Shown in pieces: positions 18,516-22,650 of a stretch of 64,000 nucleotides of DNA. The position numbers and the translations under genes were made by a program. How positions within the stretch are numbered: position 1 is the first letter of the stretch; each line of letters starts with the position of its first letter. The notes under the pieces were generated by a model, which saw nothing but the letters and a program-made list of their open reading frames with translations, searched no databases and was not told the origin of the DNA. Source of the DNA: Escherichia coli (GTDB lineage Bacteria; Pseudomonadota; Gammaproteobacteria; Enterobacterales; Enterobacteriaceae); NCBI RefSeq assembly GCF_050320075.1, contig NZ_CP190018.1; one strand, given 5' to 3'.

Positions 18516-18911
18516 TTATGAGTGGTCATTAAAGGCATCCTTAATCCACTCAACCTCATTCCCGGTGAAGGCTACCACATCGAACCGGCAATCCACAGTA
18601 TCAAAACTCCCATTATGACGCGCGAGCCACAAGCGGGCAGTCTGTAATAATTTGTGTTGTTTGCTGCGGGTCACACTGGCTGCCGCGCCGCCATAAAGCG
18701 CAGAGCGGCGGTAACGCACCTCGACAAAAACGGTGATCCGGCCTTCACGCATTATCAGATCGATCTCGCCGCCACGCTCGTTCACGTTAGCGGCGATAAA
18801 CCGCAGTCCTTTGCCTTCCAGCCAGCGACGCGCTTGTGCTTCCCACGCATCGCCGGTCTGTTTGGTGGTTAACTGGCGGGGACTACCTGACCTTGTTGGT
18901 ACTGTAGCCAT
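18516..18911 (-). CDS. yraN: UPF0102 protein (endonuclease-like fold)
   Basis: 131-aa ORF; 5' end overlaps lpoA 3' end. Confidence 0.82.
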
Positions 18912-20905
18912 GATAACTTCCTGTTAATCACGCAATCCGGGTTAGCCGTCAGACTTCCGGTATTACCGTTGATTTCAAAACCCTGAACCTGGCGCATTTG
19001 TGAGAAATGATTTGCCAACGACCAGGCATCGACGCCCATCGCATACATGCGAGCCAGCGAATAATCGTTGTTCACCGCACTGAGCGCCTGCTGCATTAAC
19101 GGCAGATTACCGCCTGCCAGCATCGGGATTTCGCTGTACTGCAAGCCTTCCATCTCCAGACGGAAATCCGGGCCTGCGATGCCTTGTGCGCTGCGGGAAC
19201 TGGCGTACAGCGTTGCACCGCTCTGGCTACCGTTACGCATGGCGATCATCGGTTTGATAAAAGCGATTTCACCCGGCGTTGCCACAATGTACACCGCATC
19301 GACACGACCGCCATTATTGGTGAACTGGTCATCGGTTGGCGTGGTTTGCAGCGTTGGATTGTTGGTCGTCATGCCGGAGTCGGTTGTCGCTCTGGGAGTA
19401 ATCGGGCTACCCGTTAAAGCAATACCAGAACCGCCGTTAACACCCGCGCGTAATTCGCTGGTGGAACCAAATTTTTGTTGCAGAACGGTGCCGCCACCCA
19501 GTTTCTGCCACTCTTGCGCAAACGCATTGGCTACGCGATCGCCCAATGAACTGCGTGGGATCAGCACCAGCGGCGCTTGTTTACCCTGGTCACGAATATG
19601 ACGCGCCGCATCGCGCGCTTCGTCTTCCGGTGAAAGCGCGAAGTAACAAATATTGACGCGGTTTTCGATATTCTCCGGCTGGTTCAGTGCCAGCACGTTC
19701 AGCGGGGTGTTGCTCTTCAGCAACTCTTCAACGTTATTTTTCAGCAACGGACCGACCACAATACTCGCGCCATCCTGTTGAACCTGGTTGAGGATCTGGC
19801 TAAGTGGTTGTGATGATGTATCGTAGATTTTCAGCTCTGCGGATGGATTCGCGGGTGCGCTTACCGCTGCGGTGGTTGCCGCCGGGGCGCTTACAGGCAC
19901 CGGCTGGGCCGCAGGTTGTTCACCGGTCAGATCGCTAACCGAGGCTTGTGCCGGGCTGGCAACGCCATCCACGGTTTGCGGCTGAGGTTGTTCTGCTACG
20001 TCTGCGGCAGGTGCGGCAGCTACCTGAGCCGCCACTGGCTGAGTGCCGATATTTTTCGCCGCTTCAAAGCCTTGCTGAATAGTGCGACCAAATACCGCTG
20101 CCTGGCCATTCAGTGGCAACAGCAGGGCGATTTTGTTGGTCGATGCGGGTTTAAACGCTTTTACGTTAACCAACTGCGTTGGCAGCATTTTCGCGCCCGG
20201 GTTGTTCGGATAACGTTTCTGCCAGTCGGCGATCCCGGCTTTCATCATGTCGGGATCGTTACGGTTATCAAACCAGATGCGCTGCAGATCCAACCAGCCT
20301 TGCAGAATATTTTCGTCGGCATTGATCACCAGCGTATTCGCCTGTTCCTGAGTCATGGAGGAGAGCGCCTGCCAGGTGGCGTCAATATTCTGCTGCTTTT
20401 CTTTCGCGCCGAGCAGCGGTTCCTGAGCAATTAACGCGCGCAGTAAATCAATGGAAGGACGCCCCTGGCTGGCATCGATTTTTGCCTGCCAGTAACGCGC
20501 TTGCTGGTTTTGTTCTAAATCTGCAGGTGTGATTTTCGCCAGCAAGTTTTGCGCGCCAGCAAAATCTTTCTGCGCCAGTTTAATCTCTGCCGCCAGCAGT
20601 GTTTTCTCGCGACGCTGAGAATCGTTCAGTTCTTGCGGTAGTTGGTTAAACAACTCCACCGCCTGTCCGGTTTTACCTTCTTTCACCAGTGCACGAATGG
20701 CGAGTAATTGCCAGTTGATCCTGGTATCATCAGAACTTTGCTGCATCTGTTGCAGGTAAAAGGCAGAATCAGCCTGCGCCGTGCCCTGCATATAAGCAGT
20801 GGACTGATCGGGAGTATGGGTGCCACAACCGGCGAAAATCAGGGCTGCCAGAACAACAGGCAGACAACGCGCGGCTTTCAAACGAGAAAATGTTGAGGGT
20901 ACCAT
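18869..20905 (-). CDS. lpoA: Penicillin-binding protein activator LpoA (outer-membrane lipoprotein)
   Basis: ORF 18869..20935; start placed at [27 protein letters not shown] (lipobox); 678 aa. Confidence 0.88.
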
Positions 20906-20969
20906 AATGTATCCAGTGATATTTTTTTTACGCAATGCTCAATATTAAATCGGCAATACGGACGACACA

Positions 20970-21833
20970 ATGAAACAACACCAATCGGCGGATAATTCTC
21001 AGGGCCAGCTTTACATTGTACCGACGCCAATCGGCAATCTGGCGGATATCACCCAGCGTGCGTTGGAGGTATTACAGGCCGTTGATCTGATTGCCGCCGA
21101 GGATACGCGTCACACCGGTTTATTGCTGCAACATTTTGGGATTAATGCTCGGTTGTTTGCGCTGCACGACCATAACGAACAACAAAAAGCCGAAACGCTG
21201 CTGGCGAAGCTGCAAGAGGGGCAAAACATTGCGCTGGTTTCCGATGCCGGAACGCCGCTAATTAACGATCCTGGCTACCATCTGGTGCGTACCTGCCGTG
21301 AAGCGGGGATTCGCGTGGTGCCGCTACCCGGGCCGTGTGCTGCTATCACTGCGTTAAGCGCCGCGGGTTTACCATCCGATCGTTTTTGTTATGAAGGCTT
21401 TTTACCTGCCAAATCAAAAGGCCGCCGTGATGCGCTAAAAGCCATTGAAGCGGAGCCGCGCACGCTGATTTTTTATGAATCTACCCACCGTCTGTTAGAT
21501 AGCCTGGAAGATATCGTTGCGGTATTAGGCGAATCCCGCTACGTCGTTCTGGCGCGTGAGCTGACCAAAACCTGGGAAACCATTCACGGCGCGCCCGTTG
21601 GCGAGCTGCTGGCGTGGGTCAAAGAAGATGAAAACCGTCGCAAAGGCGAAATGGTACTGATTGTCGAAGGCCATAAAGCACAGGAAGAAGACTTACCCGC
21701 CGATGCCCTGCGCACGCTGGCGCTGCTACAGGCAGAACTGCCACTGAAAAAAGCGGCGGCGCTGGCAGCAGAAATTCACGGCGTGAAGAAAAATGCGCTG
21801 TATAAGTATGCACTGGAGCAGCAGGGAGAGTGA
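20970..21833 (+). CDS. rsmI: 16S rRNA 2'-O-ribose C1402 methyltransferase
   Basis: 287-aa ORF; divergent from lpoA. Confidence 0.88.
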
Positions 21834-21882
21834 TTACAGGCGTCGCAGCAGGAATAGCGTTGCAACGCCTGTAGCAGGCGAG

Positions 21883-22650
21883 TTAACGACGACACATCTC
21901 ATCAATCATGCATGTGAAATAGTTATGCAGCCATAAAAATGAAGCCGGGATAGCGGTAGAGACTTTAGCCGTGAGAAAACGATCTGTCGCATCCTGCTTT
22001 CCTTCGCCAGTCACCAGTAACAAAACTTCGCGGGCATTGAGAATATCCTTCAGGCCTAAGGTGATCCCACGAGTCACGGGACGGCCCGCGGTTTTTAACA
22101 TCTCATGTTGCTGTGTTCTGGCATCAAGTTGACTGATATGGCAGGCCGGTTGCAGGTTTTCTCCCGGTTCGTTCAGCCCAAGATGACCGTTTTTCCCCAA
22201 TCCGAGAACGCATAAATCCAGGCCGCCTTTGCGCGCAATCAGGTTCGTTACCCGTTCGCACTCTGTCTCATTTATCTCTTCGGAGCGAAAGCTGATGAGC
22301 TGGTCTTCACGTAGCCCCAGCGGCTGCACGATATGCTGTTGTAGGAAAGTTTCGCAGGTGCCAGGCATAGTTAATGGCAGATCCACCCATTCGTCGAGCT
22401 TCACGAAGGTGAGATGGCTGACATCAACCTGCTGCTGGTGGATTTTTTCTACCAGATAATGATACGTCAGTAATGGCGTGGCTCCGGTCGCCAGGCAAAT
22501 CACGGCATCCGGTTTGCTACGGATCACGGCCAATAAATATTCGCTGGCACGTTCACTTAACGCCGTATAGTTTTCAACTTGTTGAAGGGTTTGCACAGGA
22601 TGAAATTCCTTTAGTAAAGAGGCACCACCAGACGCAGTGCCTCGTTCCAT
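21883..22650 (-). CDS. agaI: Galactosamine-6-phosphate isomerase/deaminase-like (NagB family)
   Basis: 255-aa ORF, NagB/RpiA-like; last gene of the aga cluster. Confidence 0.82.
   Translation of the reverse strand: MERGTASGGASLLKEFHPVQTLQQVENYTALSERASEYLLAVIRSKPDAVICLATGATPLLTYHYLVEKIHQQQVDVSHLTFVKLDEWVDLPLTMPGTCETFLQQHIVQPLGLREDQLISFRSEEINETECERVTNLIARKGGLDLCVLGLGKNGHLGLNEPGENLQPACHISQLDARTQQHEMLKTAGRPVTRGITLGLKDILNAREVLLLVTGEGKQDATDRFLTAKVSTAIPASFLWLHNYFTCMIDEMCRR

What the first reader, a model, noticed from the sequence alone, without database searches (positions are those of the whole stretch)
19828..20055. Low-complexity Ala/Pro/Gln-rich linker inside LpoA
The LpoA ORF contains a stretch [67 protein letters not shown], a probable flexible linker between the N-terminal TPR-like and C-terminal domains. 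Such linkers often vary in length between strains.
Basis: seen in the sequence. Interest (0 to 1): 0.15.

Follow-up and report, generated by a model that had tools for sequence, protein, structure and literature searches.

The report
Known disordered insert in LpoA
The Ala/Pro-rich stretch is real and floppy, but it is a loop inserted inside the C-terminal domain of the E. coli cell-wall-synthesis activator LpoA, already described in 2014, and not the hinge between the protein's two domains.

Summary
The quoted peptide exists. It is aa 290-356 of the 678-aa lipoprotein LpoA, encoded on the minus strand at 19838-20038. Its low complexity is far beyond chance (entropy z = -6.25; 0 of 1000 shuffles).

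It is flexible, but it is not the linker between the domains. It starts about 30 residues into the C-terminal LppC / periplasmic-binding-protein-like domain, between helix a1 (270-286) and strand b2 (357-362). H. influenzae LpoA and most family members have only 4-12 residues at that point. Jean et al. 2014 described it as "region 1" (N285-P351), disordered by NMR. They placed the true linker at K249-K258 and found it rigid. Two AlphaFold runs gave pLDDT below 50 across the segment.

Length is fixed in E. coli. No deletion over about 100 nt appears in 5424 complete genomes, and rare draft assemblies carry microhomology-bounded in-frame deletions. Among Enterobacteriaceae, however, this is where the protein's length differences sit, at 63-143 aa. 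Protein-level constraint is relaxed about fourfold.

One feature I did not find described in the papers I read: a conserved central island, V-x-S-P-x-x-A-x-x-x-x-L-T (aa 315-327), present in 86 of 94 distinct sequences. Its function is unknown.

The finding is ordinary and already known.

The parts
18869..20905 (-). lpoA CDS (678 aa plus stop), the outer-membrane lipoprotein activator of PBP1A. The ORF listing extends it to a TTG at 20935, but RefSeq and the alignments use the ATG at 20905.
20825..20905 (-). Signal peptide and lipobox (…LIFAG-C27). Cys27 is invariant in both family alignments.
   Evidence: read directly from the sequence
20138..20824 (-). N-terminal all-helical TPR-like domain (aa 28-256).
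   Evidence: 2mhk, 6dr3
20132..20161 (-). The true interdomain linker, K249-K258. pLDDT is above 90 and NMR/SAXS show it to be rigid.
20048..20137 (-). Strand b1 (258-263) and helix a1 (270-286), the first elements of the C-terminal LppC / type I periplasmic-binding-protein-like domain. They lie upstream of the low-complexity stretch.
19838..20047 (-). Disordered insertion, aa 287-356, with no predicted secondary structure. It contains the quoted peptide (aa 290-356, 19838..20038) and corresponds to published 'region 1' (N285-P351, 19853..20053).
19925..19963 (-). Conserved island inside the insert: V315[12 protein letters not shown]327. V315, S317, P318, A321, L326 and T327 are invariant in 8 species. 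The wider island [16 protein letters not shown] is aa 313-328 (19922..19969).
19837..19894 (-). Degenerate 30-nt tandem duplication (1.9 copies, 79% matches) encoding [10 protein letters not shown] / [11 protein letters not shown] second direct-repeat pair lies at 19898-19921 and 19970-19993.
19820..19837 (-). Strand b2 (aa 357-362, ELKIYD), where the conserved C-domain resumes.
19313..19489 (-). Second E. coli-specific insert, 'region 2' (aa 473-531; published as S493-N531). It is partly ordered in the models and constant in length among Enterobacteriaceae. One sampled E. coli allele has a 16-aa deletion here.

Best explanation
The segment is 'region 1' of E. coli LpoA. It is an intrinsically disordered surface loop of about 70 residues, inserted between helix a1 and strand b2 of the first lobe of the C-terminal LppC / periplasmic-binding-protein-like domain.

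Shown: it is not the interdomain hinge. It expands a loop that is 4-12 residues long in most family members. It occurs in Enterobacteriaceae, Sodalis and Serratia, and is absent from Plesiomonas, Limnobaculum and Pasteurellaceae. It evolves under relaxed but not absent protein-level constraint. Its length is fixed in E. coli and varies between genera.

Inferred: it grows and shrinks by slippage, duplication and deletion between short direct repeats in GC-rich Ala/Pro/Gln/Thr codons. It is not needed for the core activity of binding and activating PBP1A, because orthologues without it and natural deletion alleles exist. It most likely acts as a length-tolerant flexible loop. The moderately conserved central island sits 23-38 residues from the N-terminal anchor point and may make a transient contact with a partner that has not been identified.
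For: Position. H. influenzae LpoA (5kcn) aligns with query 37-291 and then 352-472, so the gap falls exactly at the segment. AlphaFold places b1 at 258-263, a1 at 270-286 and b2 at 357-362 with high confidence, and nothing ordered in between. Foldseek's best match is full-length H. influenzae LpoA (E about 1e-42, target-normalised TM 0.74-0.82), followed by LivJ/K-type binding proteins.

Disorder. pLDDT is 25-43 across aa 301-340 in both models. NMR, IUPred and the sample degradation reported by Jean et al. 2014 agree, and the review PMC4632607 repeats the conclusion.

Lineage-specific expansion. In 106 diverse full-length homologues the insert is 4-12 aa in nearly all members at 27-40% identity. 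Inserts of 19-115 aa appear mainly among the closest relatives.

Length hotspot. Among the full-length sequences in the 120 best hits, region 1 ranges from 63 to 143 aa. The other five segments keep 256, 28, 116, about 59 and 146-147 aa, give or take a residue or two.

Constraint. Within E. coli, pN/pS is 0.18 for region 1 against 0.045 for the folded parts. Between species it is 0.57 in the flanks, 0.38 in the island and 0.07-0.23 in folded segments, with pS equally saturated everywhere.

Mechanism of length change. The window carries a 30-nt degenerate tandem duplication. Orthologues P0047, P0073, P0085 and P0105 have their own internal duplications. Deletion alleles are bounded by microhomology, CAGCCRGTG or GCGGCYCAG.
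Against: No experiment read here tests the function of region 1. Both papers call it 'unknown'.

Dispensability is inferred from orthologues and from rare draft or metagenome deletion alleles, some of which could be assembly artefacts.

The central island is conserved at the protein level, and E. coli keeps both length and motif. That argues against a purely neutral spacer.

The charge-hydropathy plot places the peptide on the 'folded' side (H 0.513 against a boundary of 0.440), so that simple predictor disagrees with the NMR and AlphaFold results.

The pN/pS values come from 10 alleles and 8 species, pooled pairwise without phylogenetic correction. The interspecies flank alignments are unreliable.
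Confidence: 0.9

Rival explanations
1. One reading: the stretch is the flexible linker joining the N-terminal TPR-like domain to the C-terminal domain.
For: It is flexible and lies roughly mid-protein. By fold topology (my inference, not computed), the a1-b2 loop leaves the same edge of the sheet where b1 enters from the N-domain, so it may protrude near the junction.
Against: The N-domain ends at about 256. Strand b1 and helix a1 of the C-domain (257-286) come before the stretch. The H. influenzae alignment runs straight through the junction. The real linker, K249-K258, is rigid.
Confidence: 0.02
2. The loop is a functional tether. Its conserved island (V-x-S-P-x-x-A-x-x-x-x-L-T) would be a short linear motif that binds a periplasmic partner such as PBP1A, a hydrolase or adaptor of the PBP1A-LpoA-NlpI-endopeptidase complex, or peptidoglycan. 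The variable flanks would only set its reach.
For: The motif is present in 86 of 94 distinct Enterobacteriaceae region-1 sequences and in none of the shuffles. Six positions are invariant in 8 species while synonymous sites are saturated. It is invariant in 9 of 10 E. coli alleles, with one conservative D to E change. It keeps a fairly constant distance from the N-terminal anchor (23-38 aa) while the C-flank varies from 23 to 107 aa. Jean et al. speculate that the regions may fold on binding a partner.
Against: pN/pS of the island is only moderately lower than that of its flanks (0.38 against 0.57). AlphaFold gives it pLDDT 25-33 even with a motif-rich alignment. Natural deletion alleles P0006, P0008 and Salmonella P0064 remove it. 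It is not seen in Sodalis or Serratia symbiotica inserts. No partner is known.
Confidence: 0.25
3. The conservation or composition reflects a nucleic-acid feature, such as an antisense gene, an internal promoter or terminator, or a structured RNA, rather than the protein.
For: A 172-aa antisense ORF (19916-20434, + strand) overlaps the segment. GC rises to 0.67 there.
Against: The antisense ORFs have no meaningful Pfam match. Rfam gives nothing in the segment. Promoter- and terminator-like sites are at shuffle level and none lies in the segment. The RNA fold z-score is -1.17. Synonymous sites in the island vary freely. The GC peak follows from Ala and Pro codons.
Confidence: 0.01

Closest known systems
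'Region 1' (N285-P351) of E. coli K-12 LpoA (Jean et al. 2014, Structure 22:1047, PMC4111904)
   Same: Same gene, same position and same length. 65 of 67 residues of the quoted peptide are identical to a K-12-like allele. The paper describes it as flexible, absent from H. influenzae and of unknown function.
   Different: Two substitutions (AT for TS at aa 344-345). The conserved central island and the genus-level length survey are not mentioned in the text I read.
H. influenzae LpoA (PDB 5kcn, 5vat, 5vbg; C-domain 3ckm)
   Same: Same two-domain architecture and fold (Foldseek E about 1e-42).
   Different: It has only a short a1-b2 turn where E. coli has about 60 extra residues, and it also lacks region 2.
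LpoA 'region 2' (aa 473-531; published as S493-N531)
   Same: It is a second E. coli-specific insert in the C-domain, flexible by NMR, with pN/pS of 0.20 within E. coli.
   Different: Its length is constant (about 59 aa) across Enterobacteriaceae. It is partly ordered in the models, with pLDDT below 50 only for 511-519 in the better model. It is Thr/Gly/Asn-rich rather than Ala/Pro-rich.
N-terminal disordered tether of LpoB
   Same: It is a disordered segment in an outer-membrane activator of a class A PBP.
   Different: The LpoB tether sits between the lipid anchor and the globular domain and provides reach across the periplasm. LpoA is described as more rigid and as not relying on such a region. 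The segment here is an internal loop of a folded domain.

Membership tests
LpoA / LppC family (Pfam PF04348) | Profile match above the curated threshold | tested here: met
   451.3 bits against a cut-off of 28.8. The match is split into two stretches around the insert.
LpoA / LppC family (Pfam PF04348) | Lipoprotein signal peptide with a lipobox cysteine | tested here: met
   …LIFAG-C27-G. C27 is invariant in alignments A1 and A2. No dedicated signal-peptide predictor was run.
LpoA / LppC family (Pfam PF04348) | N-terminal TPR-like helical domain plus C-terminal type I periplasmic-binding-protein-like domain | tested here: met
   2mhk and 6dr3 match at E of 1e-140 or better. The model matches 5kcn/5vat and LivJ/K-like proteins.
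LpoA / LppC family (Pfam PF04348) | Conserved gene neighbourhood rsmI / lpoA-yraN-diaA-dolP | tested here: met
   Seen in the window, in annotated E. coli and in the other genera.
LpoA / LppC family (Pfam PF04348) | Binds PBP1A and stimulates its activity | not testable with these tools
   Known for the K-12 protein from the literature.
Interdomain linker | Lies between the last element of one domain and the first element of the next | tested here: not met
   Strand b1 (258-263) and helix a1 (270-286) of the C-domain come before it. The published linker is K249-K258.
Intrinsically disordered region | No stable secondary or tertiary structure | tested here: met
   pLDDT is below 50 and no DSSP elements appear in two AlphaFold2 runs. 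Published NMR on the near-identical protein agrees.
Intrinsically disordered region | Low mean hydropathy with high net charge (charge-hydropathy criterion) | tested here: not met
   H is 0.513, above the boundary of 0.440. The segment is Ala/Val-rich with only 5 acidic residues. It is strongly depleted in bulky hydrophobic residues and rich in Pro.
Strain-variable tandem-repeat (VNTR-like) coding region | Array of repeat units whose copy number differs between strains | tested here: not met
   Only one degenerate 1.9-copy 30-nt repeat is present. Length is fixed across the sampled E. coli genomes.
Short linear motif in a disordered region | Island of conservation flanked by unalignable sequence | tested here: met
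   Found in 86 of 94 distinct sequences. Six positions are invariant in 8 species while synonymous sites are saturated.
Short linear motif in a disordered region | Demonstrated binding partner, or a functional defect on mutation | not testable with these tools
   The monomer AlphaFold runs show no docking. No multimer tool was available.

The most novel reading that the evidence does not exclude
The conserved island V315-x-S-P-x-x-A-x-x-x-x-L-T327 in the middle of LpoA region 1 is a functional short linear motif. The disordered loop would present it to recruit or sense a partner in the PBP1A-LpoA cell-wall synthesis complex, or peptidoglycan itself, giving the 'flexible regions of unknown function' a role specific to Enterobacteriaceae.
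Probability: 0.2. Interest if true: 0.4.

Novelty: already known. Interest (0 to 1): 0.1.

Why it matters
It matters little beyond correct annotation. The segment should be labelled as a disordered insertion within the LpoA C-domain, not as the interdomain hinge. The distinction is relevant because LpoA's proposed reach across the periplasm depends on a rigid junction between its two domains.

The one lead is the conserved island inside an otherwise fast-evolving loop. It offers a cheap, specific target for testing what the 'flexible regions of unknown function' do. It also explains why constructs lacking this loop may be better suited to crystallising the E. coli C-domain.

Tried and rejected
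Translating 19828-20055 (-) as given produces stop codons because the interval is out of frame. The coordinates were corrected.
- **NCBIfam.** The scan of LpoA returned no family.
- **Intramolecular docking of the island.** A second AlphaFold2 run with an alignment rich in motif-bearing Enterobacteriaceae left the loop at pLDDT 25-28, so there is no support for docking.
- **Nucleic-acid explanations.** All were negative: antisense ORFs, Rfam, promoter and terminator scan, RNA fold z = -1.17.
- **Counting deletion alleles in complete genomes.** I used the deletion junction of L018 as a query. The top hits were all full-length alleles in two pieces spanning 420 nt. The ranking ties, however, so single-piece hits cannot be listed and the result is uninformative beyond.
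- **Literature on the function of region 1.** Four full-text searches and readings of PMC13046291, PMC11211486 and PMC8824477 found nothing on this loop. The 2017 JBC paper on full-length H. influenzae LpoA is not held.
- **Model coordinates.** They are not available to scripts. I could not measure where the loop emerges relative to the domain junction or the cleft.
- **First MAFFT run.** It timed out and was repeated with faster settings.

Full report
**Observation**

The window carries a minus-strand ORF at 18869..20905. It encodes a 678-aa protein beginning [27 protein letters not shown]. The ORF listing extends the ORF to an upstream TTG at 20935. RefSeq annotates the 2037-nt CDS in the identical strain CFSAN061763 and in eight other E. 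coli.

The quoted 67-residue peptide is present verbatim as aa 290-356, window 19838..20038 (-).

The low complexity is real.
- Composition is A 21, P 11, V 9, Q 7, S 6 and T 4, with no Lys or Arg. One of 67 residues is bulky hydrophobic or aromatic, against 24.7% in the rest of the protein.
- Entropy is 2.92 bits. The mean is 3.84 +/- 0.15 for all 15,011 windows of 67 aa in the 56 long ORFs of the window (z = -6.25).
- The only comparable segment is the RG-rich tail of the DeaD-like ORF.
- None of 1000 shuffles of LpoA came close; the lowest was 3.20 bits.

**Identity of the protein**

- Pfam LppC (PF04348) scores 451 bits.
- The solved E. coli LpoA N-domain structures 2mhk and 6dr3 match aa 27-256 at about 99% identity.
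- An AlphaFold2 model (mean pLDDT 87.3, pTM 0.82) matches full-length H. influenzae LpoA best (5vat, 5kcn, 5vbg; E about 1e-42). It then matches type I periplasmic binding proteins of the LivJ/K kind.
- The neighbourhood rsmI / lpoA-yraN-diaA-dolP is the canonical one.

**Where the stretch sits**

The phmmer alignment to full-length H. influenzae LpoA runs continuously from query aa 37 to 291, straight through the domain junction. It resumes at query 352 at the adjacent H. influenzae residues. About 60 residues are therefore an insertion relative to H. influenzae, and they begin about 30 residues inside the C-terminal domain.

The model places strand b1 at 258-263, helix a1 at 270-286 and strand b2 at 357-362, all at pLDDT above 90. 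Nothing is ordered from 287 to 356, and pLDDT is below 50 for 296-342. The junction at 249-258 is confidently ordered.

This matches Jean et al. 2014 (PMC4111904) exactly.
- NMR of full-length K-12 LpoA detected only two flexible stretches. These are 'region 1' (N285-P351) and 'region 2' (S493-N531), both in the C-domain and both absent from H. influenzae.
- The linker was defined as K249-K258 and the two domains tumble as one rigid body.
- For region 1 they report S2 of 0.449, hetNOE below 0.2, 87.5% coil by Delta2D and IUPred above 0.5.
- They state that the function is unknown.

No solved structure covers the E. coli C-domain.

**Evolutionary origin**

I aligned 106 diverse full-length homologues from the 50%-identity representative library, which gave 3793 hits in all.

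| Group | Length between the end of a1 (GFxxAK) and b2 ((V/I)K(V/I)YD) |
|---|---|
| Nearly all members at 27-40% identity | 4-12 residues |
| Mainly the closest relatives | 19-115 residues |

Named examples:
- With an insert: Enterobacteriaceae, Sodalis (95 aa) and Serratia symbiotica (60 aa).
- Without one (about 5-10 aa): Plesiomonas, Limnobaculum, Mergibacter, Ursidibacter and H. influenzae.

In the AT-rich symbiont Serratia symbiotica the insert is N/I/K/F-rich rather than Ala/Pro-rich. That suggests its composition follows mutational bias.

**Length variation**

Among the 120 best hits, all Enterobacteriaceae, the length differences between full-length sequences fall in this loop. The other five segments differ by at most a residue or two.

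| Segment or taxon | Length |
|---|---|
| Region 1, E. coli and E. albertii | 72 aa |
| Region 1, Citrobacter and Salmonella | 70-81 aa |
| Region 1, Enterobacter, Lelliottia, Pseudescherichia | 84-124 aa |
| Region 1, one metagenomic protein (P0047) | 143 aa |
| The other five segments | 256, 28, 116, about 59 and 146-147 aa |

Growth by local duplication is visible.
- The window has a degenerate 30-nt tandem duplication at 19837-19894 ([10 protein letters not shown] / [10 protein letters not shown]) and a second direct-repeat pair.
- Orthologues carry their own internal duplications: 31 aa in P0047, shorter ones in P0073 and P0085, and QAQAQAQ in P0105.

Within E. coli the length is essentially fixed.
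- 5424 of 5426 complete genomes match a 501-nt query, all with at least 80% coverage. That excludes deletions over about 100 nt.
- The weakest-ranked record still spans 501 nt at 90.8% identity.
- All 30 records sampled across the ranking span exactly 501 nt.
- All ten aligned alleles have 72 residues for aa 285-356.

Rare singleton clusters carry in-frame deletions within the loop. Examples are P0008 (40 aa) and P0006 (34 aa) in E. coli, and P0064 in Salmonella. They come from draft or metagenome assemblies and are bounded by microhomology, CAGCCRGTG or GCGGCYCAG.

**Selection**

| Comparison | Segment | pN/pS |
|---|---|---|
| 10 E. coli alleles | Region 1 (pS 0.140, pN 0.026) | 0.18 |
| | Region 2 | 0.20 |
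| | Folded parts | 0.045 |
| 8 species | Region 1 flanks | 0.57 |
| | Central island (aa 313-328) | 0.38 |
| | Folded segments | 0.07-0.23 |

Between species, synonymous sites are saturated everywhere (pS 0.6-0.77). These are pooled pairwise estimates without phylogenetic correction, and the flank alignments are unreliable.

**A conserved island**

In the middle of the loop the sequence [16 protein letters not shown] (aa 313-328) is recognisable across genera. Variants are [42 protein letters not shown] and GVVSPSAASVDNLT.
- The pattern SP[SA].A.{3,4}[DE]LT occurs in 86 of 94 distinct Enterobacteriaceae loop sequences and in none of the shuffles. Four of the eight exceptions are near-variants and four are deletion alleles.
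- V315, S317, P318, A321, L326 and T327 are invariant in eight species while codon third positions vary freely. The constraint is therefore on the protein.
- The island lies 23-38 residues from the N-terminal anchor. The stretch after it varies from 23 to 107 residues.
- It is not seen in Sodalis or S. symbiotica.
- AlphaFold gives it pLDDT of about 25-33, even with an alignment enriched in motif-bearing sequences.
- Natural deletion alleles remove it.

I did not find this island described in the papers I could read. Its significance is open.

**Other strand and nucleic-acid level**

- The overlapping antisense ORFs have no meaningful family match.
- Rfam finds nothing in the segment.
- Promoter- and terminator-like sites are at the level of shuffled sequence and none lies in the segment.
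- The mRNA segment does not fold better than shuffles (z = -1.17).
- The GC peak of 0.67 follows from Ala and Pro codons.

**Mechanism**

Shown: this is a disordered, lineage-specific insertion in the a1-b2 loop of the LpoA C-domain, and it is the protein's length-variable hotspot.

Inferred:
- It expands and contracts by slippage between short repeats.
- It is not required for the core PBP1A-activating function, because insert-less orthologues and deletion alleles exist.
- It behaves mainly as a length-tolerant flexible loop.
- The central island possibly mediates a transient contact; I put this at about 0.2-0.25.

By the topology of the parallel-sheet fold, the loop should leave the edge of lobe 1 where b1 enters from the N-domain.

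**Verdict**

It is wrong on the key structural claim, because this is not the interdomain linker, and it does not hold for strain-level length variation in E. coli. The feature has been known since 2014, so interest is low.

Noticed in passing
window 21834-21882 (between rsmI 20970-21833 + and agaI 21883-22650 -): agaI lies 49 nt from rsmI. A K-12-like strain has the roughly 5.4-kb yraHIJK fimbrial operon between these genes. It is absent from the window and from the 100%-identical strain CFSAN061763.
   Followed up: partly
window 19313-19489 (-), LpoA aa 473-531 (region 2); L007 (E. coli IAL7252): The second C-domain insert is constant in length across Enterobacteriaceae. One sampled complete E. 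coli genome has a 662-aa LpoA with a 16-aa in-frame deletion here (aa 508-523, [16 protein letters not shown]), bounded by the microhomology CAACCGA. Clusters P0004 and P0010 show the same region-2 length of 43 aa.
   Followed up: partly
window about 8117 onward (+ strand), C-terminal part of a 652-codon open frame (DeaD-like, [13 protein letters not shown]…): An RG/RGG-rich tail (…[36 protein letters not shown]…) is the only protein segment in the window with lower sequence entropy than the LpoA loop (2.79 bits).
   Followed up: no
window 19925-19963 (-), LpoA aa 315-327: A conserved island, V-x-S-P-x-x-A-x-x-x-x-L-T, sits inside the otherwise unalignable disordered loop. It is conserved at the protein level across Enterobacteriaceae genera. 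I did not find it mentioned in the literature I read.
   Followed up: yes
P0143 / P0287 (Serratia symbiotica LpoA), loop position: The AT-rich symbiont keeps a 60-aa insert at the same site, but it is N/I/K/F-rich instead of Ala/Pro-rich. Composition seems to follow genomic mutational bias while the insert itself persists.
   Followed up: no
window 18869-18911 (-): The yraN start (ORF 18516-18911) overlaps the 3' end of lpoA by 43 nt. The same overlap appears in all annotated E. coli and in the other genera examined, which suggests translational coupling within the lpoA-yraN-diaA-dolP cluster.
   Followed up: no
P0047 (748 aa, ENA metagenome; Enterobacter-like LpoA): Region 1 reaches 143 aa through a near-perfect tandem duplication of about 31 aa (PAPAETQAAPATDAASEQPQPQNIQPA…). 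It is the clearest example of recent expansion of the loop by duplication.
   Followed up: no
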